A stretch of DNA of 63,946 nt from Chara braunii. Its lineage: Eukaryota; Plantae; Charophyceae. The notes beneath the pieces are model-generated. The model was not told the DNA's origin, searched no databases, and worked only from the letters and a program-made list of their open reading frames with translations. Positions 434 to 32,933 of this stretch are shown piece by piece. Every line of letters begins with the position of its first letter. Within the stretch, counting starts at the first letter, position 1. The position numbers and the translations under genes were made by a program. The stretch is from contig BFEA01000013.1 of NCBI GenBank assembly GCA_003427395.1, positions 6,559,038-6,622,983 of the forward strand. Reading direction: 5' to 3'.

Positions 434-688
434 ATGGAGGATAGCAACACAGTTAGAGTCTCCTGCTCTCTGTATCAGGACGCTGCAGAGACCTAGAGGG
501 AGAGTGCAGTTGAGGAATACAACCATCAGACTGCTATGATGATGGAACACGCACTGACCCTCGTGAGGAATCATACAAAAATCGAATACACATACTACTT
601 GCATGATAAGAATGACAGACTATGTGCCACCATAACTTCTGTGGGTACTATTGAGAAAGCAAGGAGGACTGTTAGCAACCACCAGTGA
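434..688 (+). pseudogene. LTR-borne small ORF (family B), TGG>TAG stop in this copy
   Basis: Copy of open ORF 19125-19379; weak similarity to 4038-4304. Confidence 0.45.
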
Positions 689-964
689 GCGTTTTGTCTC
701 TGAACAAGTACAACTCACTTATCCGGACAACCAACAATCTAATCAGCAGTCAATCATCAGCAATCAGTTATTATTAGTGATCAGTTTCCAGCTCAGTCTT
801 CAATATTAATTTTCAGCATTCAGTCTTCAGCATTAGTCTTCAACACTCAGTTCTCAGCTTTCAGTTGTCGGCATTCAACTTTCAACAAACAATTTTTTTT
901 GCAATCAATTCAGGTAACCAGCTCTCCAGGACCATCTGGTCAGTTTGCACTGCCAAGAGTACTG

Positions 965-1627: not shown

Positions 1628-2417
1628 GAGAGACTAACCAGAGGGATGAGTGAGGACTCTTGAGAGGTGCTGACCATGCTTGTTTATGTGTACTTTCTGA
1701 GATTATTATGAGTTCTCATTTTTCCCTCATTCATTTGATTTTGCCTTTGCTCGAGTCAGTCGGTCTTGCTTCTTGCATTGTTCTTATCTGAAGATTGCTA
1801 TCGTGGATGATTCTATCACAGTTCTCAAAATCAGATTGACATAATTTATGCATGCATAGCACCCCATAATTTTATGATTATTATTTGCATAATTTTTCGC
1901 TGTTCTGAATCAAAATAAAAGATTCCTAAGACCGGGGACCGGCGAGGACCGTAATTGAAGGGTCTCGCTCGAAGTCGGACGCACACAAAAGGAAGGGATT
2001 TGCATTATTTAATTTATTTTATTTACTACAATCACATACAAAATCCTGCTTGACAGCCTGTTAGCTTTCCGGTCGGCCGAAGTGCCTCGGCTGGAAAAAA
2101 TGCGACAAAAAAGATTTTTGTGTCCGGAACGAGCCTGGGTCATCATCATCTTTGAACTTTGATTAAGACGTGAGAACTGTTGACATTTCTGTGAGCTTCA
2201 TGTTAATTTTGTTATTGTCGATTGAGTTTCTATTCTCTTGAGAATTACGACTGCTAACTGTGATTTATTTCTTCCTTGTGTGAGGTACCACACCGGATCG
2301 GGAAAGGAGATTGATATTATTGACTGGAGAGAATCGAACTTGACACCAGGTATGACCAATTATCGTCCAACACACTGAAAGGAATTGAAAGGAAGAGAGT
2401 GAGACGGATCGAGACAA

Positions 2418-2831
2418 ATGTTGGTCGACGGTCTTCTGAAAGAATTATCTAAATTTACTACAAGAGGAATATTTCCTTACAGATATGAGGTTTATTGGAG
2501 CTATGACTCTTGTGGCTCAACCATCTGCGTAGTGCTGACTCACTTCTTGGAGGGAGATATCTATGATATCCGCCCCTATGTCAAGGAAGAAGGCAGTAAT
2601 GATGGTGAAAATTTTAATTGGTTATAGGAGATCGTGATCCAATTTATCTATGATGAAAAGACAGACCTCATCAAGCAAAAGAGGAAAGTGGAATGGGGCA
2701 TAATGCCAGTAACATACAAGATTGTCCCAATCCCGCCTATACCTGACAGCTATTGTGATGGGACTAACTGACTGCTGATAATCAACATAGTATTGACAAG
2801 AGAAAAAAAGAACGGTGGTCATGAGAGCTGA
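2418..2831 (+). pseudogene. Family A paralog 2 (two in-frame stops)
   Basis: LSKFTTRGIFPYRY...FLEGDIYDIRPY...NWL*...PIPPIPDSYCDGTN*LLII aligns with LNRFSCKEAFRYRY...FADDTIHDLRPY...PKPLVPFPLTDGTSWLDVI. Confidence 0.75.
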
Positions 2832-2835
2832 ATAG

Positions 2836-3315
2836 ATTTCAGCAGAAGTAATCAGACAAAGAAGGTCAAATTTTGGCAGAGGTTCGGGTCCAAGTCAAGA
2901 GAAGATTGAATGTCTCCTAAGGTCACTAAATACTCTGAGCAAGAAAGAGGCATTTCCATATAAAGTTGTCGGGTATGAGATGGTCGAGAGCGGATGGGAG
3001 CAGGAACGATTATATGTATTGACTTTCTATTTCACAGATCTGAATGTGTATGATGTGAGAATCTATATTCCAAAAGAAAGAAGCTCTGATGCAGTGTATG
3101 GGAGATGCTGGGGATTTGCTGAAGAGGTAGTACTGAGAGAGAAAAAGAGAGTTGAGAGAGAGAACAAATGCTTCACTGGGTCGACTCGATTTATTGTCTT
3201 TGATGGATTTTCAGTCCCTCCCTTACCTGATATCAATCTATCTGAAAATAATTGGTATGCCATGATAAAGTTTGCATGGAAAGTAAAGAGAGTCCAAGAA
3301 AAATACTCTCAGTAG
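2836..3315 (+). pseudogene. Family A paralog 3
   Basis: LLRSLNTLSKKEAFPYK...FTDLNVYDVRIY...CWGFAEE...PPLPDINLSENNWYAMI; the upstream ATG at 2821 is followed by a stop. Confidence 0.75.
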
Positions 3316-3824
3316 CCAAGATACCTACTGTGAGGGGTATACTCTATGAGGTGATAGGGTATGGTAATCCTTTAATGATCCTGAGGTACGAGACTTGTGA
3401 GAGAGGACCCAAAAAATTTCGCATCCAAGTGGTCAAATTCTTGAGTACTGGCAACTTGGACGTACGGATTTATGTACCATCAGGCCTAGAAAAGGAAGGT
3501 GAGTACTTGAAGTGTTAGACATGTGCTTATATTAGTCTCATAAGAACCAAAGAGTGCCTTGAAAAGTTAAAGAGAAAAGTAAATTGGGGAAAAAAAGTAA
3601 GACAATTCGAGAGGCTCCCTGAGTTCTCAGTTGCTGAGGGATTTGAAGGCAGGAGGGATTGGATGCCTCTGTTAGAAGCTATTGCTGAGATTGGTAGAGC
3701 AAGAGAAAAAGACTCTACTGTGAGGATAAAATCCCTACTTTTGAGTACCTTTGAACACAGATTCGAGATCCCTAATTGTGTCGAACCTGAGATCTACCTT
3801 TCAGATGTTGCTTATGATGATTAG
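3252..3824 (+). pseudogene. Family A paralog 4 (one in-frame stop)
   Basis: VVKFLSTGNLDVRIYV...KC*TCA...KRKVNWG (paralog 2 has KRKVEWG)...RRDWMPLL. Confidence 0.7.
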
Positions 3825-4037
3825 CAATGTCCAGTTTGACTGAACAACTGACACTAGGAGTTGTGACAGCCTTTCTTAGATCGCATGAGAGATTCTGCTC
3901 TGAGAATTATCACTGACCAGACTGAGATAAGCTATCTGTTGAAAGTGGTGAAAGTAGAAACTATTGAGAGAGTACCATATCACACTTTTCAGGAACGGGT
4001 CTCTCTTGCAAGAATGATCAACAGTAGGCTGTAAACG

Positions 4038-4304
4038 ATGCAATTTGATAATGAGATTATAGACCAGACTCGATATTTTATGATTCGAGGTACTATAAAG
4101 GGGTATGACAGAAGACTGAGTAGGGATGATGAGAGAGAGTTGATTGAAGATTACATTGGAAGACTGAGAAGGATTGCACTGCCTTTGATCACTACCCAAT
4201 CTATTATTGCTTATACCGTATATGTACAGAACTCTCAAGGGGTAGAGCAGACAAGTGAAGAAAGAAACGAGTCTGTATCCCTTGCTAGAAGAGTGACAGA
4301 CTGA
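4038..4304 (+). CDS. Small ORF upstream of gag (family B)
   Basis: ELIEDY...ALPLITTQSIIAYTVYVQN resembles AVEEY...ALTLVRNHTKIEYTYYLHD of 19125-19379. Confidence 0.4.
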   Translation: MQFDNEIIDQTRYFMIRGTIKGYDRRLSRDDERELIEDYIGRLRRIALPLITTQSIIAYTVYVQNSQGVEQTSEERNESVSLARRVTD

Positions 4305-4366
4305 GGGGCAAAGAAGAAAAGGACAAGAGTGACAGAAAGAGAGAAGAGAATATCTGGGGAAAATGT

Positions 4367-5838
4367 ATGGTCAAGATGGCAGGACGAGGAAAGCCGAGTA
4401 CATTAGCAGGGACTAATGAAGAGGTCCTGGTTGGAGTTATACGGGAGTTGGTTGAGAGAGTTGATACCATCAAAGGAGGGTCAGACATTGCAAGAGCAAA
4501 GAGGTCAAATGAAAGAATTCCCTGCTTCAGAGGACCTCAGGTTAATGACTTTTTGGATGAGTATGAATTATTTGGGCTCAGTTATGGCTGGACAGATAAG
4601 CAACGGCTTAAGCACCTTCTATCTTATTGTGACACTGATTCGAGACTGGCAGTTCAGGAACTAATGGAAGTTGCTACCACCTGGGAAGAAGTCAAGGAGA
4701 GACTGAAAAAAGAATTTGGGAAAGATTCAGTTCCAACCACAACTAAGGACTTACTCAACATCAGAAGAGCTAAATATGACACTTTCAATGTTTTTCTTCA
4801 GATCTTCATCCGAACAGCAAGAAGAATTCCATATTTGGACGAAGCTCGGAGATGCCATATATTTTTGATAAATTTTACTGACACTAAAAGGCAAGCAGTT
4901 CTTAATCAAGCTCAACATTATCGTCTCAGATGAGATGAAATCGTCGCAATCATAAGAACTCTACCTACTTCTCCCATAAGAAATGGTCACTGGATCAGAT
5001 CAGTACTTTGGCCAAGGATTGGGAGACTGAGAATGGAATGAATAGAGGAAACAATCTGACTGCTGAGAATATTCTTCAAAAAGTGATGACTAACTTTATG
5101 CCTGCAAGGCCTGCAACGTATGCTGTGGATGACAGGGGAAAGAAAAAGGCTGAAAGTGAGGAAGATGACGACGATGATGATGACAACGAAAATCATGGTA
5201 AGAAGGGGGATTCGTCCATAACCAAAAGGAATGGGAAGAATGGTGATGGAGGAAACAGAGAGAAAAGAAAATATGATAAGCGTCCTAAGAGGAGTTTTGT
5301 CTGCTACTATTGCGGTGAACGAGGTCATACTACCACTTATTGCAAGCCTCTTGAGGAAGATGTAAGGAGTGGGGTGACAAAGAAAGATGCAATGGACCAT
5401 GTCTGTGATAGTTCATGGAATAAGTTGGATCCCAGACATCTGGTAGGTATGAAACTTCTTATACTTAAACATGATGAAAAGATGAAGATTAAGAAGAAGA
5501 GAAAGACTAATGTGAATGTTCATTTTCTCATTGAAGACTTGCCTAATGAGCTAGTAAAAAAAGCAAGTGACCCTTATACCACGATTGAACTGCCTCTGCA
5601 GTCCTTAACACTGACAGAATGTGAGCCTAGCGAGACATCAACAAGTGAGTCTTCATTGGGAGAGAACCCTACTTTTCAGAATCCTTCTGGATTAGTAGAG
5701 TCCTCTTCCAATGAAATGACTCATCTCCCGGCTAACATGATGTCATTCCATGATGATTTACCCCCAGAACTTATCATGGAACCCAGTGTCAGGGTTGGTG
5801 AAGTGAGGAACCATCAAACCCGTATGACACCTCAATGA
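4367..5838 (+). pseudogene. gag: Gag (capsid + CCHC zinc knuckle), disrupted
   Basis: IPCFRGPQVNDFLDEYE...W capsid-like motif; CYYCGERGHTTTYC knuckle; stop at 4933 and a frameshift. Confidence 0.9.
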
Positions 5839-5978
5839 TATAAGAAAATAAAAGAAAGAAGGTTGAGGAGTCACTTATTAACATCCTTGATGACCCTAAA
5901 CCGGAACGTTCACAGGAAAAGAATGAACAAGGGAGAAAGATAAAATTTATTCTCAAGAGTGATTTCGATGATGAGACT

Positions 5979-6524
5979 GTGATTTCTGATATAATTGCTA
6001 AGATGCTGGAAGAAACTGAAGTGACACTGTCTTTCAACGAAGCAATGACACTAGCACCCAAAATGACAGAAAAGTTGAAAATTTTAATTGAGAAGAAGAA
6101 AATGAAAGTTAATTATTTGGGGTCAATCTTTCCCAACCAAGTGAATAGATCACTACCAGGTTGCAAGATGAGATTTGCAACCATGGGTTGTGGGCATCTT
6201 ACAATTCGCATTAATCAGATGAAGATTCTAACCCTAGTAGATTCTGGGGCAGAGATGATACTTCTTTCACGAAGAACGATGGAAACATGTAATTTATCTA
6301 TTGACAGACCTGCACAAAATGTACTGAGTAATATTGCAGGAGAACTGTCCGTGGTTGGATTTATTGATAATTTGCCTATCAGGGTTGGGACAATGACTGT
6401 GGAGTTACTGGGTTTTGTGGTGCCAGATATGGATCATGACTGTATTTTGGGAACTCCATTCTTGCATAGGATGAAGGCAGTCCAATTTTTCAGTCATGAG
6501 GGGTCATCTTGGATCAGTCTATAG
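5979..6524 (+). pseudogene. pol: Retroviral-type aspartic protease
   Basis: LVDSGAE active site and ILGTPFL motif. Confidence 0.92.
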
Positions 6525-6923
6525 GATTCCGAGACTGCCCCAGAGCAGACTTTTATGGTCAGTACGAAAAATGACTTCAAGCACCAACTATCTACTAATT
6601 CGATCAGGAGGGAAGAATTTGCTGAAAGGATTAAGAAACTAAAGGAGGAAGGAAAACGAGAAGTAAAAGAAGAGATTTCAGTGGGAATCAATCAGGTTTC
6701 GAAAATGATAAAAGCCCTTGGTAAACTCGAGGATGAGAACGAACAAATTGAAGACTTCAAGAAAGCTGTAGAGACTGCTAAGGGAGGAAAGATGGAACTG
6801 AGATTTGCACCGACTCACCTTTTTTTAGGAAAATAGTCACTGGGTCAAAAAGAAAATATAAGCCTAAGGGGGTGAAGAAAAACCCAGTGGCAGTCTTGAT
6901 AGAAAAAAAATTATGATGAAGCC

Positions 6924-8480
6924 TTGGAAAAGGAAAGACAAATTATAAGAGCATTGAGGGAATCAGCAAAACTGGAGAATAGGGTCACCAAAGAGAGGTT
7001 TGACACAATGAAGATAGGCTCAGAACAGTTTATCCTGCCTAAAGAGAAAAAATATATCTTCAAAGTGTGTCAAAAATTCTCTGGTGCTTTCTCCTTTAAT
7101 GATGAAGAGAGAGGGCGGTTGGACATGGACATGATCAAGATGGCCAAGATCTGGACAGTTGATCATGTTCCATGGAATGATAGACCAACCAAGTATGCCC
7201 TAAAGGAAGAAGCGGAAGTAGCAAAGTACCTTAACAAGAAGATTGCATCTAATGTTGTTGAACCTGCTGATGAACCGTATGCTAACCACTGATTTTGTTT
7301 TTGGAAACTAGGGGGCGGACTAAGATGGATACAGAATCTTCAGAAGCTCAATTCTGTGACGGTACGTGATGCAGAGTCTTCCTAATGCTGATCTCCTCGC
7401 TGAATCCTTTGCTGGTCGATGTATTTATTCTCTAGTTGACCTGTATTCTGACTATGATCAGTTCCCTATTGATTCCACTAGCCGGCCAATGACTGCCATG
7501 CACACACCAAGGGGGTTTGTTCAGATGTGCGTGGTACCTCAGGGCTGGACTAACGGAGTGGCAGTGGTTCAAAGGGATATGATCAAAGTCATGCAGGATA
7601 TTTCTTCTGAAATAACCATTCCCTACATTGATGATAATCCTGTAAAAGGACCCTTGGTAAGTGATGAAACTTTGGTCGCAGGGGGAGTCGGAAAGTTTGT
7701 CTGAGGACATGCTGAAAGAGTAAAGACAGTCCTAGAGAGACTTCAGAAGTATAATCTGACTGCCAGTGGGTCAAAGTCCCTTCTCTTCCAACCAGAAGTG
7801 ATAATCTTGGGCTTCAGATGCTTCTCCAAAGGTAGGAGTCCAGATCCCAAGAAGATAGACAAGATCTTGAACTGGCCTCTGCCTCTCAAGAGAGTGACAG
7901 ACGTCAGGAGCTTCTTGAGAACCTGTGGATTCTGAAGAATTTTTATTTCTCATTTTGCTGCCCTTGCAAAACCTTTGAGGGAAATGGTAAGGCAAGGTGC
8001 TAATTTAGCATGGGATGATAAAAGACAAGCTGCAGCAGAAACGTTGCAAGAAAAACTAAGAGATGGTGGTGTAGTGCTGGGAGTGTCATATTATGATGAT
8101 GAGGAGACAAGACCTTTCATCATTGAGGCGGATGGAGGACCAGTTGCTCTGGGTGGAGTGCTTATTTAGAAAGATGAAAATGAGAGAGAAAGACCTCTGA
8201 GATTTGAGAGCAGAACCCTTAATTCTACTGAAAGATGTTACACCCAATTTAGGAAGGAGCTACTGTCAATCATCCATAGCCTCAGGTGTTTTAGGCACTG
8301 CGTCTTAGGAAAGAGATTCGTCTTGAGGACTGATGCATCTGCTGTGATAGGTGCCATTAAAAAACGCCAACAAGTAGATCCAACAGTTAGCAGATGGATC
8401 GCCTTCATCTGGACATATGATTTTAAGCTGAAAAAGATCCCCACTGAGAAGAACAGAGCGGATGGCTTAAGCCGGATTGA
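6924..8480 (+). pseudogene. pol: Reverse transcriptase and RNase H, disrupted
   Basis: DLYSDYDQ, PQGWTN and YIDD motifs. RNase H motifs: FIIEADGG, RPLRFESR, RTDA, NRADGLSR. Several stops and frameshifts. Confidence 0.95.
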
Positions 8481-8939
8481 GTGGCGAGAAGAAGAAGAAG
8501 ATGTGAATGGAACAATTGAAGAATTTGCCTATGTTGATAATTTCCTTAACGAAAAAGATGATGAGGATTATGAGGCACCATGCTCCTACAAGTGGAGTCT
8601 GTGGCCTGAAGAGAGAGACAGTTGGGGAGAAATCTCAAGTGCATACGTTTATGAATCGATTCTCGGGAAAGAAGAAGAAGATGAACCGAACGATTGGTAT
8701 GCAAGAGTTAATGCAGCAGCAGTGGTTGTTCATCACATTGGGGAAAGTTCAGGTTCAAAGGAAGAAGAAAAGAGTGAAAAGAAGAAGGAATATGTATTTT
8801 TTTTCTTTGAAGAATATGATGAAAATTATCAAGAGATTGGCAGGAAGATGGAAAGGGAGCAGCTAAAAGAATATTATTGTAAAGATTCAAGGAAGAAATT
8901 CAGATTAAAGAGAGTACATCTCTTTGTGGATGGTAAGGG

Positions 8940-10087
8940 AGGCTTACCTCCACTAAGAGTGGTCTGTGGTAAAGAGAGGCAGTTAGAGATAATTGTTGCC
9001 CTACATGAGGGGGCCATTGGTGGCCACAGGGCTGCTGAGGCTACCTACTCCAAGTCTGCCAAACTCTACTTCTGGTCTGGCATGAGAGACATGATTTTCA
9101 AATACTGTAAATCATGTGTCTTAGGATGATTGAGCCCTTGTTCCCTACAATTCTGGTAGAGTCAGGTAGTAGAGTTCAGCTGGATCTCATCACTATGCCT
9201 CCAGGCAAGGGTGGGATGAGATACATATTAAACATTAGAAATAACTTCTCTGGATACGTTGAGGCAAAAACTCTGAAAAAGAAGACATCCGAGTAAGTGG
9301 CTGATTGGATAGAGGAAGTCTATCTCAGGTATCCTTTTATCAGAGAATTTGTCTCAGACAGAGGATCAGAATTCAGAAATGAGGTTGTCAGAAGAATTAC
9401 ACTCAGATTGGGTGTCAGAATTCGGTATGTGACTTCTTACCATCCTCAAGCGAATGGACCTGTTGAAAGAGACCACAAAACTCAGAAAGATTCATTGGCC
9501 AAGTGGTGTGAAGAGAAACTCAGTAACTGGCCAAAGGTGTTAAGAGCTGTTGTATATGCTGATAATATCACAGTCAAGAGAACTACTGGTTATGCACTTT
9601 TTATACTGTGGTATGACCGTTATGCTACGTTACCAATTGAGAGTATTGTCAAGACATGGTCAAGTCAAGAGAGTGACAGGGATTATTCTATTTCAGAACT
9701 CCTTCATATCATAATGAGGCAGGTATCTGAAGTTGATCAGGCAGTGATGGATGCATCAGAGAGAATGGCATCCAGTAGGCTATCAGATCAAGAGAGATGA
9801 AACAAGAAAAGGTATATAAGAAAAGAGAAATTGAAGATTGAAGATGTTGTTCTTCTGTTTGACAGTTCTCTTGAGACATGACTAAAAGATTGGAGCCCAG
9901 ATGGCTTGGTCCTTACAGAATCATATGAGAAGCAGAAAACAAGGTATATGAGATCTCGGAAATGGACGAATCCAGAGTACACGATATGGTCTCAGGGTCA
10001 AGACTTGGTAAGTTCATCTTCAGAGACCCTGACTTGATCCCTACAGTGACTCCAAAGAGAGGAAAGAGAAGTCAACCATCCAAGTAA
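8940..10087 (+). pseudogene. pol: Integrase (HHCC, DDE core, GPY), no chromodomain seen
   Basis: HEGAIGGH...CKSC; QLDL, SDRGSEF, YHPQANGPVER; WLGPYRI near 9900. Confidence 0.93.
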
Positions 10088-12195
10088 GAGAACGGTCAAA
10101 GAGGACTGAGAAAGAGCACAGTAAGACACTGAGACAGTGAGGCTCAGTTATCGGCAGACAATGATCATTCTTGCATAGTCAATTCAACATTTCAGTTTCA
10201 GTATTTCAGTTTCAGTACTTCAGTTTCAGCATCTCAGTTTCAATGTACCAGTTTTCAGCAAGTCATTTTATTATCTATTTCAGCAAGCAACTAAGTTAAT
10301 GAGACTATATCTTTGATGCATTGCTGCAGTCGTTCCATGAGTGTTAAGTCATGAGAGTGGGGAGTAACTGTGAGTACAGTTCTGGGAGCATTGACACAGT
10401 GTTAAGAGCTGTGAAACCCATGGCTGTGGCACGTCAAATGATATAAGCAGTTTTATTCTTATCACAAAGAGAAAGCATGATGGGCATAAAGAAGTTCAGT
10501 TCTGTCTGATTGAAAGTTATCAGCAGAAGGACTTCGTGTCTCTAACTAAGTTGTCAATCCAAGAGATTCGGATGAGGGCATGCATAAAGAAGTTCAACTT
10601 TACTTGAGTGAGGGTAGTAAGTAGAGGGACTTCGTGCTTCTTGGTTAAGGACCTGTTTTTACTCAGATGAGGGAAGGGACCTCTCTTAGATCAGAGTTTC
10701 AGTATTTCCTTGAGACTGACTGGACGTCTCTTGGAAAAATAAATCCCAGTTGAGGGAAGAAACCTCTCTGGGGCTAACACAAAGTTTTTGCTTGTGACTG
10801 AAGGGAGGTCTCTTGCAAACTCTTAGTGTTGGCTAGCATGTTATTGTTCAAGTGTCTCTTGAGACTGACGGGACGTCTCTTGAGAGATGTTTGTTCTGTT
10901 ATGGGACGTGGGCAGTCTGCTTGTGGGGTTATGATATGTTTGCCTGACTGTCTGTGTCTGGGGTTTTCTTCTCTAACCTAAAAATGCGTTGATTGTCGGG
11001 GTCAGCCAGAGTCTTACCGCAGTAGGTTGCAATCTGGTGGGGTCAGCGGGTCCCCGACGCGAGTGTCGAATTCCATAGTCAGCTGAGGCTAAGACTCCGG
11101 GGGTCTGGCCTATGAGGTTGAAAGGGGTCAGCTGGAACCCTACCGCAGTCAGAGGATGCAATCCAGTGAGGTTAGCCAGAGCCTGGAACTATGGTTAGAC
11201 CGGGTCCTACGTTCAAAAATCTGGGCGGGGTAGCCAGCGCCCTTGGCCAAAAACTGGTAGGTGAGTCAGTCCCTCACCGCAGTGGTCAAATCCGGGTTCG
11301 GGACAGTTTGACTGACGGGACGTCTACTGTCATAGAGTGACCAGACCCGCTATAGTCTGGGTGTCCTGGCGAGAGTGCCAAAGGGCTGTCATACTCGAGT
11401 AGTGGGTATGATTGGTCCTGGCATGGAGGCAAGTCAAAAGGGCTATCAAGACAAATGGTCTGACTAGTCCTAGCCTGAGGCGGGCCGAATGAGGTATGTC
11501 AGACTAACGGGACGTCGGACATTCCTGGCCAGTGGTAGACCGAAACCAAGGTAATCAATAAATCCTGGGTATGAAGAGCTGTTATGTATTAATTGTTATT
11601 TGTTATTTATTATTTTATTTATGGGTTTTATTTTAATTTATTGATGCTTGGCTGCTGGTTGTCAGAGGGTCTGCTTGGTGGGATATGGTTGTTGTCTGTG
11701 GGACTTGCTGGTTTTGCAAGTACGCAAATACTTATTTGAAGTTCCCAGACCAGGGAAAAGAAAGAGGGTTTGGTATCCCCTCCCTTTTGTCTGAGAAGTT
11801 GAGAAGACGCCTCACTTGGACCAGAGAAAGAAAACAAGGGTTTGGTATCTCCATCAAGTGAGGAGCTGAGAAGATGTTTCTCAAACTGGAGAACAGAAAA
11901 GAGGGTTTGGTACACCCTATTTCCAGCATGGCAGATAGAGTGAATACCCCCCGTTATTGTGGTCGTTCCTGGCATAGATGCCTGATCAAGAACTAAGGTA
12001 ACCTCCATGAGAAGGACCAACAGTTGAACAAGTCGAACAAGAAGACAAAATCCTTCTTAAAATTTTATTGGGTGGCCGACAAGCGACCTGGTTTACGAGG
12101 AACCGATGTCCCTGGCCCAAGGGAGGCAAACTCTCAGGCCTGGGACGCTATGAAGTGGATGGGAATGAGAATTTTTTGTGAGCCAGAAATCGGAT

Positions 12196-12660
12196 TTAAA
12201 AGGCTGAGAAGAAGCCGCGTTTATATAGGACATAAAAGACAACCATAAGTTCAAGCTGGAAAAAGAAGAGAAGGAAGAAAATGTTGAAGAGAACACAGTG
12301 ACTGGGGTGATGAGGAGATGAGGCAGTGCATGGAACAGCAGGAGGCGGAGCGGGCACTATAGCCTTGCTTACGGCAGGGGTGGAAGGAGCTCTTGGGATA
12401 TAAGGAGGGGAAGAAGCACTTTGCGCGCCGTAGCGCGCGTCAAATCTCTTACGAAGGAACTCCATCCTGTCAGGGGATGGAGTCCTTTCATACCACTCTG
12501 CTAATGGATAACGGGGGTATGATTTTGGATGGTCATAGCCTCGTGGCTCATCCTCCTCCTCAGAACTGTAATCACGCCGCGCCCGAGCCGGCGGTTCGTC
12601 TTTAGCCTTCCCTGCTCTTCCTCCCCTTCCTCTACCCTGACCGCGGCGTGCCTCAGGCAT
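12196..12660 (-). CDS. Antisense ORF in 3' internal region, unknown function
   Basis: 154-aa ATG ORF (RGG-rich N-terminus, acidic and Pro-rich parts) between integrase and the 3' LTR. Confidence 0.35.
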   Translation of the reverse strand: MPEARRGQGRGRGGRAGKAKDEPPARARRDYSSEEEDEPRGYDHPKSYPRYPLAEWYERTPSPDRMEFLRKRFDARYGAQSASSPPYIPRAPSTPAVSKAIVPAPPPAVPCTASSPHHPSHCVLFNIFFLLFFFQLELMVVFYVLYKRGFFSAF

Positions 12661-14788
12661 GGTGCACGAGAGGTGGGTCTAGCACCAAAGGCTACGACTG
12701 AGAAGGCTGTGCGAGCAAAGATTATGATGAAAGAGATGGATCAGGAAAAGCAGAAGTAGAAAAATACTGGAAAAAAAATAGGGAAAATAACTGCACTAGC
12801 TAAGGAGGACTACAACATGCTATGTGAAGCTTAGTGCAGAGAGAGATGGGTGGCGCAGAGAAGACAAAGGACCGAAGGTAGGAAAGAAAACTCCGCACTA
12901 AGAGAGGGGGCGAGTACTAGAAGAAGAAGTGAGTACCGAGGGAGAGAGTGAGCGCTAAGGAAACACAAAGAGACGAAATGGCGCAAAGTCGCCTTAAGAG
13001 TTTTGACGTAGGTCACAACAAGAATGAATGAAAGTGTTGGTAGTCACTGTTACTTTATACTCCCTGAGCAACTCGTTTTAACCCAGCCGGGACGCTGGGT
13101 CGGGGTTTGGTATTATGTCGGAGGGCACGGTGGCCGGCCCTCCTCCGTGTACCAAGTCCCTGCTTGGTACAGTCCCTCGCGTCGGTGCCTCGGCCTATAG
13201 ACGTGCCTTGGGATTTCGTTGCCGATTAATGCCCAGGCTGTGCTTCGGCTCAGACCAGTCCTGGTGGTTGTATCCCTAACAAAAGGGGTGCGCCACAGGA
13301 CTTCCATTGGTCCACGCAGGCTCGGCGCCCTGGTGTACAACAGAGCACAACCGATTTGTGGTCATGGTAGCCGCCGGGTTCGCCCTGGGACGCGAAAGCG
13401 AAGAACTGGCGCGGTCTTTTCTACTGCGCGCCGAGTGCCCCGTGGCCAAGTTATGGGTTAGGTGCGTGGAAATGACTTGCTGACGGGAAAGGAAAAGCTG
13501 AATGAGAGAGATAAAAGGGGAAAACAAAAATATAAAAAACAAAGAAAAGAAAGTAGAAAACCTGATCAGCACGTGGATCAGGACCGTTGCTTTAGTCCAG
13601 AATGATTCAGCGACGATCGCCTACTGCATCGTTTGAGTTTTCCCTTTTCTCTTATTATTACTGTTACTATTATTTTTATCATTATTAATTCACCGATTCT
13701 CAGATGTGATTTCCCCTATTGTCGGGATCCTGTCACTTCGCGGGGGAGGCCATCGGTCCTGTTTCCAAGNCGTGGTCGCCGTTAGTTTAGACTGAGCCTG
13801 CATGGGGCTTAAAGGACCGTCTGGTCCTAATGGTTGTGATCTGGGCCAGGTGCAGGGACGGGATAAAGGTAACCCGTGTGGATGATCCAACCACGCACTG
13901 GGGCCTAGTAGCTGAGTTTAGGGGTAGATACGACAAAGACTGAGAAAAGGGGAGGTAGGGAAAAAAAAAAAAAAGAGGAAAAGGGGCGAAGGTTGGTTTT
14001 AGTTTTGAGCGAGGACCTGTACCACTGTTCAGTCGGAGCTGCTGTGCAGGATGAAATCTGAAGCGCCTTATTNCTATTGTTATTATTATTATCATTACAA
14101 TCATTATTAATTCTTTTTTTTTGTTTTCCATTGGTCCATCGCTTCGCGAGAAGGCCAANGGTTCAAATTTCGAGTTCAGCGGTCCACAGCCTAAGTAGGC
14201 CGACCTCACGTATACCGTCTGTNGGCTGGCTCTGATTTGACGCCGTGAGGTAAGACCCCAAAAAGGAGGGCAAACCGCGGTCGCATCGGTAAGAGACTTA
14301 TCACCCACCCTGTGGAGGGTCATAAGTCCCCTCCTTTCCATCGGACACGGGCACCCAGCAGAGACAGTTCGCTGCTCTCTTTTGAGGTGAAAACCTGGGC
14401 GGTCGGGATCCCGTTATGGGACCACCACCTCGGAATAGTAGTCACGTCTCAACGAGACGAAGCGACAGGGACCGATGGCAGAAGGGCTGTGGATATCGAG
14501 GCCATAAGCTTCTTTTCTTTTCTTTTCTCTTCTTTTCTTGAGTGTTCTTTTTTTATAAAATCACAAGTTAAAATATATATATATATTATTTTTGTTTGCT
14601 TTCAAGTTTTTACTGAGCCGTGAAGCCTTTCGCTTAGAGCACACTGGGGTCATCGCCTGGAGCTTTATAAAACGAAGGTTATCCCTACTGCGCAGAAGCT
14701 TGATTCCTGGCACTCGGGGCTCAGCCTGGCTAGGTGCTGCGAGCAGGGATAGTGCGGACTGAGCATTGGCACAGACCGTTGAGAAAGA

Positions 14789-15016
14789 GTGGCTATGACA
14801 CTACATGGCTATAGGCCTGACTGTTGGCGACACACGGTACGCTGGGTTCCAATGTCGGATGAGGGCCCTCAGATCACTACGGTCCTGAACTACAATGGGG
14901 GAGAGGTAGTCCGACCAAAGGTCTGCATAGAAGGGGGGGGAGAGGAGGAGATGCGAGGTGACCAGAGGCTGCAGACTGCCATTTCCGAAGCGCGCGACAG
15001 GGAGGAACGGAGGTGA
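14789..15016 (+). pseudogene. LTR-borne ORF remnant conserved in the related LTR family
   Basis: LHGYRPDCWRHTVRW...EGPQITTVLNY versus LRGYRPRYMRYSWMW...KGTLVETILSY read on the minus strand at about 50800-50930. Confidence 0.55.
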
Positions 15017-16754
15017 AGACGAGACGGGGTGACCGTGGGCTTGAGGGTGTCGGTCATCTACCACGAGACCGAGTCATCAACTGGGACCGAGACAAGGGAG
15101 GAACAACACAACGAGANAGACTCTGGTGGGGAAAGCGAAATGAGTGAGGCAGACCGAGAGACGGATCTCAGNTCCTGGAACNGGCCTGGTGAGATCCANC
15201 ANCATCATCGAGCCGCAAACCGGGTNGAGGAGGGACCCGAGGCCAGCTCTCGACAACCGACGCCGAGGGGCCGCGGGAGAGGAGAGANGCAGAACAAAGG
15301 GAAAGGACGTGTGTGAGGCGTGGCATCGAAGGTTAGCGTTTTTGTTTTTTTCATTATGAGAAACGGGGTATNAGCTACGAGGCGGTTACATGCGTACGCG
15401 TGGCACAGTCGAAGTGTGTGTGAAGCTACTGAGAGGGGTTGAGATAGACAGCGGGGTCGAGGAGAGGTGATCGAGTAGTCAATGCGCNCGTGGCACGCTC
15501 GTGTGGGAGGAATGAAGCATCGGCGAGATGCACGAGTGATCAGNCAGCGAGAGAAAAGGATGCGCTCTCGAAATGCAAGACGCGCGGGCAAGAGGGTGGA
15601 CGAGACTGAACCCGAAATGGGGAGGCTGAGACAGGTAGCGAAGGGGGGCGAGTTTGCAAGGTGGTGACGACAACTGTTTTCTTGGGAGGCACTGTCTCGC
15701 CAACGAGCACTGGGCAACTCATGCAAGCTGAGCAAGGTTGATGTCAACACCAGCGTTGTGGACTGCTCCGACTTTCGTTCCTCTGGCAGTTAATACTTGT
15801 ACGAGCACGATGCACTCCTCGAGAGCTCTGCGCTGACTCGAAGAAGAAGAGGAGGGGGCGCGTGACGGTGACGCGTGGATTTGGTCTCNAGTAGCTCACT
15901 CCAGGGGAGAAGGAGGAGTGTGGAGAGAACATACATAGCCAATAGGCGAGCGCTTCTGGAAAAGGGGTACAATGAGAAGGCCAAAAGGGCGTAGTGGTTG
16001 ATGTTATAATTACTCGGCTTGGAATAACCAGGACTTCGTCACATAAGGGACCCAAGACGTCACTTCTAGGTAGTAAACGAGATGTTAGGGGAAGACTCGT
16101 GATGACCAGCGCGCTTTCCATGAAACGGTTCCCTCATGATGTTGTGGAAACAGACCTCCTCATTACTCATCGGAGCTTGTGTGATCTGCTCGACCAAGAA
16201 CCAGCTGTTGAGAGAGCCTCGTTTCTTTTGGAGACAATCTTACTCACCACTTATCTTGCTACCTCTGAGTGACCCTCAATTTGTGACGGGTACTGTTGTC
16301 AGAGGCTGTTGATGCGCTTCTTTGTGGCCGCTCAGTCTGGAAATTTTCAGATAAGATGGTGACTATTGCAAGATAATGTTTTTTGACTCATAAACTTCAA
16401 TTTTCTCCCCTTCTCTCTTATTTCAGTTAATTAAACCAATTGATCATTGTTAACCGATTACGTGTCATCTTGATAGGGTTAAGCTCGCAGTAGATTGCGA
16501 GAATAAGTGAACAAAAAGGGGGGGGAAGCCCCAACTCATAACAGTAGTTCGAGATGTGCAGGCTATGAAAAGAGTCCAATGTACGACTACTATCCTAAGG
16601 GATTTAGCAAGGTCGAAGTGGTTGGGTAATTTTGGTATTGACACTTGCCTATTGGGTGTAATCCCCTGCGTAGAGTGGCCTATCTGATCGTATGGAAAGG
16701 TTAAGAAAGACGAGCAGCCTTTGTATTCGTGGGTCCTATGCCATGTGTTCACAC

Positions 16755-17160
16755 CATGCGGCTGTCCCACGCGGCTACACCGTGCAGTTATGCCAAGTGA
16801 TTGCACTGTGTGACTGTGCCGTGCAACTGTGTTACGTGACCGCACCGTGTGGCTACATCGAGTGACTGCGCAATGTGCCTGCATTGCGTGATTGCTCAGT
16901 GTACCTGCAACGCGTGACTGCGCAATGTGCCTGCATTGCGTAATTGCTCAGTGTTCCTGCAACGCGTGACTGCGCAATGTGCCTGCATTGCGTGATTGCT
17001 CAGTGTTCCTGCAACGCGTGACTGCGCAGTGTGCCTGCATTGCGTGGCTGCATTCTGTGCTAGTATCGTGTGTCTGCACCGTGTGACTGCATCGTGCTTT
17101 TNCATCGTGAGNTTGCACTATGTGCCTGCACCGTGAGACTGCACCGGGTGACTGCACGGA
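16755..17160 (+). repeat. Tandem repeat inside LTR (52-bp unit built from ~13-bp subunits)
   Basis: GTGACTGCGCAATGTGCCTGCATTGCGTGATTGCTCAGTGT(A/T)CCTGCAACGC at 16862, 16914, 16966 and a partial copy at 17018. Confidence 0.9.
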
Positions 17161-19124
17161 TACGTGATAACGAAGGTTTGCANGTGCTCACCTGATTGAA
17201 TGGTTACCCATAATGGTGTGAGTTCGTTCGTGCCTTGAGATACACCGGGTGCGTGACTACAGCCCTACAGGTGCGTGTGTGTGTGGGTGAATGTTCGGCT
17301 GAATGCACTTNTTGGCCTGGTGGTTACTNNCAGGTNCTTGGTTGAATATTCTAGGCTTATTCCNCGCCAGAATGTCAAAAANGGAATGTGGAGATGATTT
17401 CTATTGGCTNGTGCTCTGTGCTTTGACTTTGATTAGATGGGGAAAAGAAAGGCAGCTCTAAGAAAAATCTTCTATGTTCTTGCAAAGTTCCTACTTGATG
17501 GTGACTAAGAGTCTACTTAGCAAAGATAAGACGAGATTTAATTCGGAGAAAAGTTGTCTGTATTACCCGTCACTACCAACGTGGCCTTGATTATACCGCG
17601 ATAATGCAACTAGCAAGTCCCTACGAAGTGAAGGATCATCAACTGACCCTTATAAGTAAGAATCATTAGTGAGGAGTGGCCCGAAGGCCCTAACTACGGG
17701 TTACGACAGACGCTATTACCACCGCATTAAGGAAGTAAGCAACTCGGTAGAANTGCANATAAGAGACGAGNGANANTAGGTNGCTTCAACNNACGGGACA
17801 GTCCNTTTAAACACATTAATCNCAGGCCTGGGAAGGAACGGGTCCAGTCAAGGGATGTGGGAAAACTGGGAGTGAGTCAACTCTCGAAAAGAGAATGCAG
17901 TATAATATAGCTCTCTGAGTTGTTGATTGGTCGTTTTGTGTTGGACGCCGCCATTCAGTCTTTATTAGGCCGTCCCCGACAGTCTGCCACTATTATTTGA
18001 GTAGGCCTGATTGCCAACAAAGTTCTATTCCATAGCCGGGTTCCAGCAAATAACTCTAAGAGAGCCACACTCCATAGTTCGAGTGGAGACTCACTAGGGG
18101 AAACATGAGCGACGCTGAGATATTGGTAGTCAAGGGCTCTATCTATCTGGATAAGCTTGAGGGTTGGGAAATAGGGGCTATCCAAGACATGGAATCGCAC
18201 AGACAGGAGCAGCGAAAACAAGCTGTCAAGATGGTCATGAGATAAAAATATATAGAATATGTGCTATATTTTTATAGTCACGATGGTAAACTACACAGCA
18301 CTGGTTCATCTCTGGAGACCGTGGAAACAACCAGGGCAAAACTCGATTGAGGCCAAAGGAGCCTGGGCTCTTTATCGGAAATCACAAGCCAGCAATATCC
18401 GAATAGCACTTAGTTTTCTCAGAACAGTGTTCAGCAATCAACCAGTGTACGAACTGCACAGTGCTAGCTCCCGGTTTGAGACGATCTAGTGAGCAAGAGT
18501 AAAGGTTGAACAACAAAAATTTACTAGAAAAACACTCAGATAACATTCGAGCGATGCACTCAAGACAATTAGAAGACGAACTCAGACAATCAGAAGACGG
18601 ACTTAGACAATGAGAAGGCGTATTCGGACAGTCAGAAAACGAACTCAGATGGAAACCAGATTTTGCGACACATGACCTTGGTACTCAGTATTGTTAGCGT
18701 TGATCAGAACACAACGATGTTATTAGGTTAGCAACCAGTCAGGTTTCAGAGCAGCAACCAGATCAGCAAGTAATCAGTCCAAGCAGCCAGGATCAAGTGT
18801 TCTGACCAGTGGTAATCGGAAAGGCAATCAGATCAGTAAGAAATTTTGCAATCAGTTTAGTAAGCAATTTTGCAATCAGTTAAGTAAACAATTTTGCAAT
18901 CAGATCAGCAATAGAATCTGCAATCGAATCGGTAGTCGGTTCGACATACATATCATTAATTAATTCAGCAAGTGATTCAGTAGTCCGAAACTGCAGTTGG
19001 AAACGACAATTTGGAACAACTATTCGAAACAGCCATCAACCCAACAGCCTTTTCACACCTATATTGTCCAAAGGTCACCCGTCTTGGGTTGGGTGAACTG
19101 ATGTAGGGGGAGTTCGGTAAGGAT

Positions 19125-19379
19125 ATGCAGGATAGCAACACTGTTAGAGTCTCCTGCTCTCTGTATCAGGACGCTGCAGAGACCTGGAGGGAGAGTGCAG
19201 TTGAGGAATACAACCAGCAGACTGCTATGATCATGGAACACGCACTGACCCTCGTGAGGAATCATACAAAAATCGAATACACATACTACTTGCATGATAA
19301 GAACGACAGGCTATGTGCCACCATAACTTCTGTGGGTACTATTGAGGAAGCAAGGAGGACTGTTAGCAGCCACCCGTGA
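19125..19379 (+). CDS. LTR-borne small ORF (family B)
   Basis: 84-aa ATG ORF with a probable paralog at 4038-4304. Confidence 0.45.
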   Translation: MQDSNTVRVSCSLYQDAAETWRESAVEEYNQQTAMIMEHALTLVRNHTKIEYTYYLHDKNDRLCATITSVGTIEEARRTVSSHP

Positions 19380-19660
19380 GCGTTTTGTCTCTGAACAAGT
19401 ACAACTCACTTATCCGGACAACCAACAATCATCTAATCAGCAGTCAATCATCAGCAATCAGTTATTATTAGTGATCAGTTTCCAGCAATCAGTCTTCAAC
19501 ATTAATTTTCAACATTCAGTCTTCAACGTTAGTCTTCAGCACTCAGTTTTCAGCATTCAGTTGTCGGCATTTAGCTTTCAACAAACAGCTTTTTTTGCAA
19601 TCAGTTCAGGTAACCAGCTCTCCATGACCATCTGGTCAGTTTGCACTGGCAAGAGTACTG

Positions 19661-20314
19661 ATGAGCACAGTTCAGTCTATGCCGGTCAGTGAGTCAGTGT
19701 TGGCCAACCTCAACCGGTTTTCATGCAAAGAGGCATTCCGTTATCGGTATGTTAGTGTCATTGGTTTAAGACAGGGAGATCTGTCAATCTTCATTGTCCA
19801 GACCAGTTTTGCTGATGGCACTATCCACGATCTGAGGCCTTACATGAAGAAGGGCAAGGAAACTCATGAACTTTTCGATCCAGTCTGGATCTCAGCCACC
19901 GAATACCTTGAGCAGAGAGAGAGGGAACTCGATGAGAATGGCACTGCGTTGATTCGCAGCTTCGGGCCGATGCTTTATACTGACTATCATAAGCGTCCAG
20001 TCCCTTCTCCTCTCACTGATGGCACGAGTTGGTTGGATGTGATTGGTTTGGCAAAGCGGTACATCTCTCCGGCGGTGATCGCGCTGACCGAGCCCACCGA
20101 GTATCCCTACCTCAGACGAGGAGTATTTTCAGTGGACGTACTGCCTACTTTGTGGGAGGAGTTTTGCTCCATGGTTAACTACCGCATCATGTGCCTCGGA
20201 TGGTCGTGCTCAGAGCTTGCTGGCTACAGGTGGCATTTCGTCACGAAACCTCAGTCTCAGATTGTACGTGGGCGTGGGTCTCGGCACCAGAGAAGATCAG
20301 TGAAAAGAGATTGA
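19661..20314 (+). CDS. LTR-encoded family A protein (3' LTR copy)
   Basis: 217-aa ORF; differs from 965-1627 by substitutions and an in-frame 9-bp indel. Confidence 0.7.
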   Translation: MSTVQSMPVSESVLANLNRFSCKEAFRYRYVSVIGLRQGDLSIFIVQTSFADGTIHDLRPYMKKGKETHELFDPVWISATEYLEQRERELDENGTALIRSFGPMLYTDYHKRPVPSPLTDGTSWLDVIGLAKRYISPAVIALTEPTEYPYLRRGVFSVDVLPTLWEEFCSMVNYRIMCLGWSCSELAGYRWHFVTKPQSQIVRGRGSRHQRRSVKRD

Positions 20315-20814
20315 GAGAGACTGACCAGAGGGATGAGTGAGGACTCTTGAGAGGTGTTGACCATGCTCGTTTATGTGTACTTTCTTAGATTATTACGAGT
20401 TCTCATTCTTCCCTCATTCATTTGCTTTTGCCTTTGCTCAAGTCAGTCGGTCTTGCTTCTTGTATTGTTCTTATCTGAAGATTGCTATCGTGGATGATTC
20501 TGTCACAGTTCTCAAAATCAGATTGACATAATTGATGCATGCATAGCACCCCATAATTTTATGATTATTATTTGCATAATTTTTCGCTGTTCTGAATCAA
20601 AATAAAAGATTTCTAAGACCGGGGACCGGCTAAGACCACAATTGAAGGGTCTCGTTGGAAGTCGGACGCACACAACAGGAAGGGATTTGTATTATTTAAT
20701 TTATTTTACTTACTGCAATCACATACAAAATCCTGCTTGACAGCCTGTTGGATTTTCGGTCGCCCGAAGTGGCTCGACTAGAAAAAGTGCGACAGCGTGC
20801 GCGCACGCGCGCCC

Positions 20815-28808: not shown

Positions 28809-29140
28809 TGTCGCATTGTTTGGAGTCGGGCCACTTCTGGCGACCAGAAAGCCAACAGGCTGTCACGCAGGATTTGGATGATGTTTGCAATAAAGAAAAT
28901 AAATAAATTAAAGCAAATCCCTTCCTATAGTGTGCGTCCGACTTCGAGCGAGACCCTGCAATTGCGGTCTTCGCCGATCCCTGGTCTTAGGAATCTTTTA
29001 TTTTGATTCGGAACAACAAATAATCATGCAAATAATAATCATAAAATTCTGGTATGTCATGCATGCATCAACTTTGCCAGTTTCCTAATTTGAGAACTGT
29101 GACAGGATCATCAGGGAACATGATCATCAAACAAAGGCAG
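28809..29140 (-). repeat. LTR 3' terminus homologous to about 1800-2107
   Basis: Reverse complement matches the LTR end, e.g. GTGCGTCCGACTTCGAGCGAGACCC and GGTCTTAGGAATCTTTTATTTTGATTC. Confidence 0.9.
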
Positions 29141-29170
29141 AGTAGACGGTGCAATGAGTTGCACAAATCC

Positions 29171-29815
29171 TTTAGACCGCGCAGACCGTTCGAAGGACTG
29201 AACCGGGATCAGATTCACAGATTACCGCTCGGTACCAGGGAGTTCGCGATACAGAACGAAAAGGAGTTAGCCACTGTTGTTGAGAACCTTAGGAAGGCCC
29301 AGCACAGAATGATAGAGCAGGCTAACAAGCACCGTCACCCATCACAGTTTCAAGTAGGCGACTTAGTCTGGGTCAAGGCAAAAGAGTTTGCACCGGAAGA
29401 AAACATCTCGCAGAAGTTACTGCCTGCATATAGAGGACCGTGACCGGTTCTAGAAGTCAAGGGCGGAGAGGATGGACCGTCCTACAGCATTGAGATTCCA
29501 GCACACCTCCACACATACCCTGTGTTNCATGCTTCNAANCTGCNGCCGTGTGTCACTAGTCAACAGTTCCCTTCCAGGAGATCCATGATCCCACCGGATA
29601 TGGATGGGAGCTATGACATNGAGGGCATTGTAGAAGAGGATGTGTTTAGGACAGGAGGTAGAGGTCGTCCCCANAAACANTATAAAGTCCGGTTTGCCTA
29701 TCAGGAACCGGAANACGACCGCTGGTTCACGAAAGCAGAACTTCTAGAGACTGCTCCCGACATAGTTAGAGCCTATGAGCGTGACAAGAAAGGTAAAGGT
29801 CCCGCCTTGGACTGA
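29171..29815 (+). pseudogene. Chromovirus integrase C-terminus (GPY/F region + chromodomain)
   Basis: KAQHRMIEQANKHR, FQVGDLVWV, KLLPAYRGP, PVFHAS; YDxEGIVEE...YKVRFAYQEPExDRW...L...PDIVRAYE chromodomain. Confidence 0.9.
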
Positions 29816-29853
29816 AATTTTCTCGGAGGACCTCGAAATTAGGACGGCGGGAG

Positions 29854-30669
29854 TGAAACGGTTTTCATCTTTTAGCAGTGGCGGATGCAGTATGCAGGGT
29901 TCGATCCCTAGACCTCACCCTACCCATGTACAGTATCTGTGCGAGAATTGAACCTGTAACCTGTGCATTCGTAGGCAGTTGGTAGGCCTGTCGTAGGTCC
30001 ATAGGCAGCAGGGGTTCTATCTGTAGGTCTATAGCGTAGGAGTCTTAGTGAGTTCGGGAAGCTTAGCTGTAGACCTTCTAGAAGGTAGGCAAGTGGGCAA
30101 GTGGTCAAGTGGAGAGGCAAGTGGTGGACTAAACCGCAGTGCAACAGCAGTACAACGTCGGTAGGATAGCGGTGAGTCCACAGTCAGTCAGCGGAAGGTC
30201 CAGTCAGTCCCAGTCCGGTCCAGCAAGTACCACAGGAGGACTGTGAGCACCAAGGGCCGATGGCAAAGGGCAGACCAACGAGTTTCTGAAGTATAAATCA
30301 AGAGGCAGCGCCCAGCCATTCATTCGTTCTTACGTGAGCCATGCGGAAGCGCTGCCACAGCCACTTGTGCAAGGAGGTCTGCAGATGAGCCCGGAGGACG
30401 CAGTGGGCTAGAGAGAGGGAGTTAGCATAGCGATAGGGTAGATGCAGTTGACAGCTGCCATAGCTGTAGTTAGTAGTGAGTGTGTGTGTGTGTGTTGGAG
30501 TGTTAGAGTGATGCGTGTGGGATATCCAGGGTGATCCAGTGTATGTGAACAGTGAGATGTTTGGGCGTTGAAGTCGCCATAGCTAATTGAGAGTGAACTC
30601 GTATCTGAAAGCCATATCTCCGAGTTTTGAGTGGGCGCATGTCGCCAGTATGCTGCGTTGCTGTTTACA
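29854..30669 (+). repeat. 3' LTR of the chromovirus fragment
   Basis: Purine-rich AGGACGGCGGGAG followed by TGAAACG at 29854; likely end GTTTACA at 30669. Confidence 0.65.
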
Positions 30670-30699
30670 TGCATGAAAAGTGTGTTTGAGAACGAGTCT

Positions 30700-32600
<1,901 letters not shown>

Positions 32601-32933
32601 TTTGCCTATTATCGAACCGGTAGGCCGTCTAACGAGCAGTTCAGTGTTTTTCTTGCTGTTTCCAACTGCTCACGGCCCAATCTTGCAGTGGACTATTATT
32701 TCTGCGAATTCTGAACTGTGCAGCGGTCACAGGCGCAGTTGTCTCTGAAAAAGTATTCCGGCTTTCCGAATTACGGGAAATAAAAAGGAAATCAAAATTA
32801 TTCCGGATTTTCAACAACGACATTTCAAATTCTCAGAAGAAAAACGAAAACGTAAATTTCAGGCACTAAAACCCACTCTACACACCCACTGATCCAGGGA
32901 TGTGGATGTGTGTGTATGGGGGGGGGGATGTGG

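What the first reader, a model, noticed from the sequence alone, without database searches (positions are those of the whole stretch)
13116..20794. About 7.7-kb LTR, implying an element of about 26 kb
Seen: TGTCG at 13116 and CGACA at 20794. Both termini are independently matched by the two ends (52220 and 28809) of a related insertion that cleanly splits a hAT gene. Inference: LTR = 7679 bp and internal region = about 11 kb, so the 5' LTR should start about 5.6 kb before the window. Known: most LTRs are under a few kb, and the largest plant LTRs (Ogre type) reach roughly 5-6 kb. Standard LTR finders could miss or mis-bound this element.
Basis: partly seen in the sequence, partly recalled or inferred. 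Interest (0 to 1): 0.78.

Follow-up and report, generated by a model that had tools for sequence, protein, structure and literature searches.

The report
Gene-carrying giant LTR in stonewort retrotransposon
A broken jumping gene, likely from a stonewort alga, has an end-repeat of at least about 4.9 kb and likely 7.7 kb that carries small protein-like genes of no known family; at full length it would exceed the plant end-repeats in the surveys read here and the size limits of common search settings.

Summary
Largely confirmed. A decayed Ty3/Gypsy element (closest named relatives: Chara braunii) has its 5' LTR tail at 1-2107, an 11.0-kb interior with gag-PR-RT-RH-INT, and a 3' LTR ending at 20794 (94.7% identical). 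The start at 13116 matches the end of a second insertion that splits a hAT gene, and homology runs on for 2 kb. New evidence from gene models at other Chara loci: one places the 14795-15310 segment upstream of this family's gag and RNase H; another joins that segment to the LTR's far end. About 4.9 kb is therefore supported as LTR. A 2.8-kb core (15311-18104) has no second copy and lies in a low-quality stretch, so 7679 bp is likely (about 0.7), not shown. The LTR holds three unrelated small ORF families; one has 30 homologues, including a Chara vulgaris transcriptome ORF. No PBS or PPT was found. Not Ogre, not Phygy by structure. The second insertion has no LTR pair; its gag-pol is another clade. 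The scan has noted genes inside giant LTRs in other genomes before. New variant of a known kind.

The parts
1..2107 (+). 3' part of the 5' LTR (cut by the window edge), ends TGCGACA
   Evidence: 94.7% to 18692-20794; three-way end alignment
434..685 (+). ORF A, 5' LTR copy (84 codons, one stop)
965..1624 (+). ORF B, 5' LTR copy (220 codons)
   Evidence: no Pfam family
2108..4288 (+). 5' leader with three B-family paralogues (2418-2768, 2872-3312, about 3315-3722) and a two-unit ORF C (3867-4301); no tRNA-type PBS found
   Evidence: first TGG at 2136
4289..10084 (+). broken gag, protease, RT, RNase H, integrase (Ty3/Gypsy order); no extra RNase H or chromodomain detected
   Evidence: Pfam; stops and frame changes
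10085..13115 (+). 3' non-coding interior with short repeats and an antisense 160-codon frame (12199-12678); no purine tract before 13116
13116..15310 (+). 5' part of the 3' LTR, supported by other copies; holds an old duplication of about 410 bp
14795..15313 (+). ORF D (173 codons, one stop, several N), small protein family of Chara
   Evidence: 30 homologues at E<=0.001; 19 C. braunii models and 1 C. vulgaris transcriptome ORF among 20 looked up
15311..18104 (+). unverified core of the 3' LTR (2794 bp), with a 26-bp tandem array at 16835-17157 and 22 isolated N sites
   Evidence: no second copy; no nested-insertion marks; element-like composition
18105..18347 (+). ORF A', diverged paralogue of ORF A
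   Evidence: ungapped score 89 against background -78 +/- 19, next unrelated 20
19125..19376 (+). ORF A, 3' LTR copy (84 codons)
19661..20311 (+). ORF B, 3' LTR copy (217 codons)
20601..20606 (+). only AATAAA in the LTR, invariant in three LTR ends; predicted poly(A) signal
18692..20794 (+). 3' part of the 3' LTR, matched by the 5' LTR
20795..20798 (+). right flank GCGT, candidate 4-bp target-site copy
   Evidence: left copy outside the window
28809..52220 (-). second insertion of a related LTR family (ends 28809-29150 and about 50600-52220 kept), filled with nested elements and gaps; splits a hAT gene

Best explanation
13116-20794 is likely the single 3' long terminal repeat, about 7.7 kb, of a decayed Ty3/Gypsy retrotransposon predicted to span about 26 kb, and it is likely this long because it took in and duplicated small protein genes and short tandem arrays. 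Shown: the two LTR ends, the gag-pol order, three ORF families inside the LTR, paralogues of one of them in the leader, a 410-bp duplication and several arrays. Inferred: the element copied itself by the ordinary LTR route. The one conserved AATAAA lies 193 bases from the end, so U5 would be short and ORFs D, A', A and B would sit in U3 or R, at the 3' end of a genomic RNA of about 18.7 kb plus R, and be copied to both ends at each round. Inferred: these ORFs were kept by selection as proteins, probably expressed from their own promoter or spliced RNAs; TATA-like words lie just upstream of D. I guess that they are accessory factors acting on the host or on the element's own RNA; no function is shown. 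How reverse transcription is primed is unexplained. This copy is dead.
For: Termini and collinear homology to the second insertion. Only one 5' terminus and one 3' terminus lie in 13116-20794. The flanks ATTA and GCGT differ, so the stretch is not a free-standing insertion with its own target copy. P0034 (CBR_g2670) has D (61%), then this family's gag (82%) and RNase H (91%), so D lies upstream of gag-pol in that copy, while it lies downstream here. P0037 (CBR_g30998) has D (62%), then B (86%), then another RT. A' extends native sequence back to 18105. The core has no inverted termini with a target copy, no internal LTR pair and no match to other window repeats, no microsatellite, and the element's G-rich skew in 6 of 7 tiles. 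Codon-position identity is 2>1>3 in 6 of 6 diverged ORF pairs.
Against: 2794 bp has no second copy: 0 of 31 D-bearing proteins match 15290-18691 at E<=0.02, and similarity to the second insertion is not above shuffles in 9 of 9 tiles from 15101 on. 33 isolated N sites lie in 13770-17822 and none in the interior or the LTR's 3' part, so this stretch is of lower quality. No tRNA-type PBS, no self-priming match and no purine tract were found. Gene models are machine predictions: they give order and strand, not distance; only 1 of 31 joins D to this family's own gag-pol and 1 of 30 joins D to B. The codon pattern rests on protein-guided alignments, which lean that way. The left target copy is outside the window.
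Confidence: 0.7

Rival explanations
1. Both termini are right, but the family's LTR is only about 5-6 kb; part or all of the core 15311-18104 is a later insertion into this one LTR or was put in by gap filling from another copy.
For: No second copy of the core; 22 isolated N sites in it; the neighbourhood is full of nested insertions.
Against: No inverted termini with a target copy, no internal LTR pair, no coding match; composition like the element and unlike the flanks (a weak test).
Confidence: 0.22
2. 13116-18691 belongs to a second, truncated copy of the same family joined to the true 3' LTR by recombination, deletion or misassembly, so that the 7.7 kb is a chimera.
For: No purine tract before 13116; D is only 61% identical to P0034 where gag and RNase H are 82-91%; low-quality stretch.
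Against: No extra LTR terminus in between; P0037 shows D followed by B at another locus; A' and A form a paralogue pair across the 18692 line.
Confidence: 0.06
3. These are not LTRs: the unit is a non-LTR-style element bounded only by TGTCG...CGACA, as the second insertion looks, and two copies happen to flank a gag-pol.
For: The second insertion has both termini, a gag-pol in the same orientation and no LTR pair.
Against: That gag-pol is another RT clade, 55% identical to element 1's RT while the LTR ends are 83% identical in DNA; B paralogues tie the LTR to the leader of element 1; P0034 ties D to element 1's own gag.
Confidence: 0.02

Closest known systems
Ogre (OTA/Tat) Ty3/Gypsy elements of dicots (PMC6431247 passages; PMC6317226 passages and supplementary table)
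   Same: Giant size (16-25 kb), very long LTRs (1.9-6.5 kb), 11-13 kb interior, extra ORFs upstream of gag, tandem arrays.
   Different: No extra archaeal-type RNase H between RH and INT, no tRNA-Arg PBS, a 4-bp rather than 5-bp target copy in the related insertion, ORFs inside the LTR itself, LTR likely longer than 6.5 kb, charophyte host. Resemblance of layout only; descent not tested.
Phygy non-chromovirus lineage of Physcomitrium (PMC6317226 supplementary table)
   Same: 4-bp target copy; element 1's flank GCGT fits the NCGN preference (3.7% of window 4-mers do); no extra RNase H or chromodomain.
   Different: Phygy elements are 7.7-10 kb, have no extra ORFs and mostly a tRNA-Trp PBS. The related insertion's flanks (GTGG/GAGG) do not fit NCGN. 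No Phygy sequence was at hand for a tree.
Burro/GYPSM1 of planarians (PMC6431247 passages)
   Same: Giant Gypsy-like element with accessory ORFs.
   Different: Burro is giant through a 25-kb interior and a huge polyprotein (over 30 kb in all); here the interior is 11 kb and the LTRs make up most of the length.
'Chabys', the roughly 20-kb Gypsy-like repeats said to lack LTRs in the Chara braunii genome paper (recalled; paper not held; 0 papers with the name plus Chara)
   Same: Same genus, similar size class, Gypsy-like gag and RT.
   Different: This element has LTRs. Whether it belongs to that set could not be checked; its RT lies apart from most C. braunii RT hits.

Membership tests
Ty3/Gypsy LTR retrotransposon | gag-PR-RT-RH-INT order on one strand | tested here: met
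   Pfam hits in that order at 4289-10084; integrase core weak (E 0.007-0.015), zinc domain E 3e-11
Ty3/Gypsy LTR retrotransposon | direct terminal repeats ending TG...CA | tested here: met
   2.1 kb at 94.7%, both ending TGCGACA; TGTCG start seen for the 3' copy only
Ty3/Gypsy LTR retrotransposon | target-site duplication | not testable with these tools
   left end outside the window; related insertion has GTGG/GAGG, 3 of 4
Ty3/Gypsy LTR retrotransposon | primer binding site after the 5' LTR | tested here: inconclusive
   first TGG is 29 bases out; self-priming best duplex -14.2 kcal/mol, reached or beaten by 5 of 15 shuffles; no host tRNA set to test against; copy is decayed
Ty3/Gypsy LTR retrotransposon | polypurine tract before the 3' LTR | tested here: not met
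   8 purines in the 15 bases before 13116; nearest purine run of 10 or more is at 12938
Ogre/Tat | extra archaeal-type RNase H domain | tested here: not met
   no such Pfam hit between PR and RT, RH and INT, or after INT; none in the related intact pol P0036
Ogre/Tat | 5-bp target copy and tRNA-Arg PBS | tested here: not met
   4-bp copy in the related insertion; no TGG-type PBS
Ogre/Tat | RT-RH-INT tree position | not testable with these tools
   no reference sequences came back from the searches
Phygy | 4-bp NCGN target copy | tested here: inconclusive
   GCGT fits; GTGG/GAGG is 4 bp but does not fit
Phygy | compact element (7.7-10 kb) without extra ORFs | tested here: not met
   at least 20.8 kb in the window with several extra ORFs
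Phygy | RT-RH-INT tree position | not testable with these tools
   tree holds only Chara and unnamed metagenome rows, no outgroup
Chromovirus | chromodomain after integrase | tested here: not met
   no chromodomain hit in three frames of 9800-10401

The most novel reading that the evidence does not exclude
Chara carries a lineage of 26-kb Gypsy elements with 7.7-kb LTRs, longer than any plant LTR in the surveys read here, whose U3 is a cassette of selected accessory genes; such elements were missed by capped LTR searches and may account for part of what was described as LTR-less giant Gypsy repeats in this genus.
Probability: 0.3. Interest if true: 0.72.

Novelty: new variant of a known kind. 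Interest (0 to 1): 0.55.

Why it matters
If 7.7 kb holds, it passes the 6.5 kb given for Ogre LTRs, and the 26.4-kb element passes the 24.1-kb maximum of a 13,566-element green-plant survey, in a lineage that seems to have become giant independently, in an algal relative of land plants. That survey capped LTRs at 6000 bp, and a charophyte genome study used the same cap plus a 5-bp target rule, so such elements would be invisible to them. Pieces of the LTR's ORF D are built into at least 19 C. braunii gene models, fused to hAT, protease, dynein or Clp exons, which matters for gene annotation in this genome. Protein genes kept inside an LTR raise a testable question about what they do for the element.

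Tried and rejected
Upstream DNA: no genome held; the sequencing-run search gave no answer, so no reads were laid. Two motif scans of metagenome contigs: 0 matches each. ORF B: 0 of 164 candidates at E<=0.001, no usable Atlas hit. ORFs A, A', B, C, D: no Pfam family above cut-off. Folds: model of B (pLDDT 64.5) and of a D homologue (64.5) both read strand-strand-strand-helix-strand, but no Foldseek match reached E 0.001 and the best VIA Z for B was 6.0 (gelsolin-type, rmsd 3.6, 73 aligned), which that tool calls common; the VIA search for D had not finished. One ancestor for D, A and B: rejected for now, hhalign probability 0.1-0.3% in 3 of 3 comparisons. ORF C as an A relative: weak only (z 3.7). 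Self-priming and junction hairpins: not above shuffles. Rfam on 1-21000: one weak hit on the tandem array, taken as chance. Selection between the two LTR copies: ORF B 14.5 synonymous to 19.5 replacement changes, not used as evidence. The nested gag-pol as the second insertion's own: rejected. In the tree 16 of 37 candidate rows were kept; 9 were dropped as shorter than 120 aligned residues and 12 had no hit. Literature: ten searches found no description of this family or of a longer plant LTR; subscription papers are not covered, so this is weak. Supplements of the bioRxiv preprint were not seen.
Full report
Host and layout. No genome is held for the window. An RT from the window finds 25 proteins, 22 of them Chara braunii gene models at 42-81% identity, and element 1's RT-RH finds 13, 12 of them C. 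braunii; the host is therefore likely C. braunii or a close relative. Self-comparison shows 1-2107 repeated at 18692-20794 (94.7%; 69 transitions, 28 transversions, K2P 0.048). Between them lie gag, protease, RT, RNase H and integrase in Ty3/Gypsy order, broken by stops and frame changes. So the window opens inside a 5' LTR, and a 3' LTR ends at 20794.

The 5' end of the 3' LTR. A second insertion on the minus strand (28809-52220) splits a hAT gene exactly: one hAT protein aligns up to residue 458 on the left and from 459 on the right, with flanks GTGG and GAGG. Its 28809 end matches 20493-20794 at 83%. Its 52220 end aligns with 13116 through the terminal TGTCG, and collinear blocks continue to 15127. 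A sensitive scan finds three copies of the 3' terminus and two of the 5' terminus in the window, with one of each in 13116-20794. The four bases left of 13116 (ATTA) differ from those right of 20794 (GCGT), as expected for a 3' LTR and not for a lone insertion.

Evidence from other loci. P0034 (CBR_g2670) begins with 173 residues matching 14795-15310 (61%, E 1e-50), then matches element 1's gag (82%) and RNase H (91%). In that copy the segment lies upstream of gag-pol; here it lies downstream. A profile of this ORF D found 30 proteins at E<=0.001 among 1.84 billion; 29 of 30 match D in the window by tblastn. Of 20 looked up, 19 are C. braunii models, on 18 contigs of different length, and one is a Chara vulgaris transcriptome ORF. 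One of the 30, P0037, runs from D (62%) straight into ORF B near the LTR's far end (86%) and then into another RT, which links the two ends in a third copy. These are machine-made gene models: they show order and strand, not distance.

What remains open. Supported LTR sequence is 13116-15310 and 18105-20794, about 4.9 kb; the second block reaches back to 18105 because ORF A' there is a paralogue of ORF A (score 89, background -78 +/- 19), and I count the 344 bp between A' and 18692 as native without separate proof. The 2794-bp core has no second copy (0 of 31 proteins; not above shuffles against the second insertion). It shows no marks of a nested insertion, no microsatellites and the element's strand bias, but it holds 22 isolated N sites, with 11 more in the 5' part and none in the rest of the element. 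I put 0.7 on about 7.7 kb being the family's LTR, 0.22 on 5-6 kb with a later or artefactual core, and under 0.1 on a chimera or a non-LTR reading.

The LTR codes for proteins. It holds D, A', A and B; three more B paralogues (22-26% identical) and a two-unit ORF C follow in the leader. In 6 of 6 diverged pairs identity is highest at codon position 2 and lowest at position 3, which suggests past selection on the proteins, with the caveat that the alignments were protein-guided. No family, fold or mutual homology was established. An old duplication of about 410 bp (score 65, shuffles at most 35) and arrays of 26, 21, 24 and 13-14 bp add length.

How it likely works. The single AATAAA (20601) is invariant in three LTR ends, so U5 is predicted to be under 200 bases and the ORFs to lie in U3 or R. 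They would travel at the 3' end of a genomic RNA of about 18.7 kb plus R and be copied to both ends, as nef and sag are in retroviral LTRs (recalled). TATA-like words at 14554-14666 precede D. The start site is unknown. No PBS, self-primer or purine tract was found; this is unexplained and counts against a textbook reading.

The second insertion is a decayed relative. It keeps about 1.6 kb of the 5' end with a diverged D (33%) and about 340 bp of the 3' end, has no LTR pair, and is filled with other elements and three gaps. The gag-pol inside it groups with the common C. braunii RTs (100/99), while element 1 groups with an unnamed metagenome protein (99/95) in an unrooted tree of 17 rows.

Comparison. 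PMC6431247 (passages): Ogre LTRs 1.9-6.5 kb, elements 16-25 kb; Burro over 30 kb. bioRxiv 10.1101/835561 (passages): cap 6000 bp and 5-bp targets only. PMC9915684, PMC6947507, PMC11899658 and PMC9258317 (passages) added nothing on this family. The element works like Ogre in layout but lacks its extra RNase H, and it fails Phygy's compact build; tree placement against either could not be tested. I recall that the C. braunii genome paper describes roughly 20-kb Gypsy-like repeats lacking LTRs; it is not held, so any link is a lead only. Earlier notes of this scan describe genes inside giant LTRs in other genomes; none covers this sequence.

Verdict. New variant of a known kind, interest 0.55.

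Noticed in passing
window 37259-45290 (-): A second decayed gag-pol of the common Chara clade, followed after integrase by a gag-like frame (38694-39152) and coiled-coil frames; no LTRs found around it. It may be the LTR-less type recalled from the literature.
   Followed up: partly
window 29165-29812 (+) and 48739-49341 (+): Integrase end and gag start of a third Gypsy family, in swapped order, each abutting a remnant of the second insertion's LTR; points to deletions or scaffolding across gaps.
   Followed up: partly
window 45432-45691: A 260-bp near-perfect palindrome (89%) whose arms begin with TGTCGAG, just upstream of the nested gag.
   Followed up: no
window 61830-62169 and 31660-31887: Further long palindromes (84% over 340 bp; 81% over 235 bp), probably MITE-like.
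   Followed up: no
window 34570-36113: Array of 150-250 bp units separated by (AG)n and (AC)n runs, each unit holding a short inverted repeat.
   Followed up: no
window 30706-32582: Three copies of a 260-300 bp repeat, one of them inverted, flanked by microsatellites; MITE- or SINE-like.
   Followed up: no
window 24238-24488 and 58361-58586: Two copies of a repeat (75%) with GTTCGGGC-type subterminal units on either side of the hAT gene; possibly related DNA-transposon ends.
   Followed up: no
window 12199-12678 (-): Antisense 160-codon frame in the 3' interior of element 1, proline- and charge-rich, no Pfam hit.
   Followed up: partly
window 10183-10260 and 19474-19582: Similar TTCAG-rich 14-bp arrays after integrase and before ORF B; could be arrays of splice acceptors.
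   Followed up: no
window 43027-43107: ARAGORN calls a tRNA-Asn inside the nested protease frame; probably chance.
   Followed up: no
P0037-P0066: ORF D pieces are fused to hAT, Ulp1-type protease, dynein and Clp exons in C. braunii gene models, so scattered LTRs distort the annotation.
   Followed up: partly
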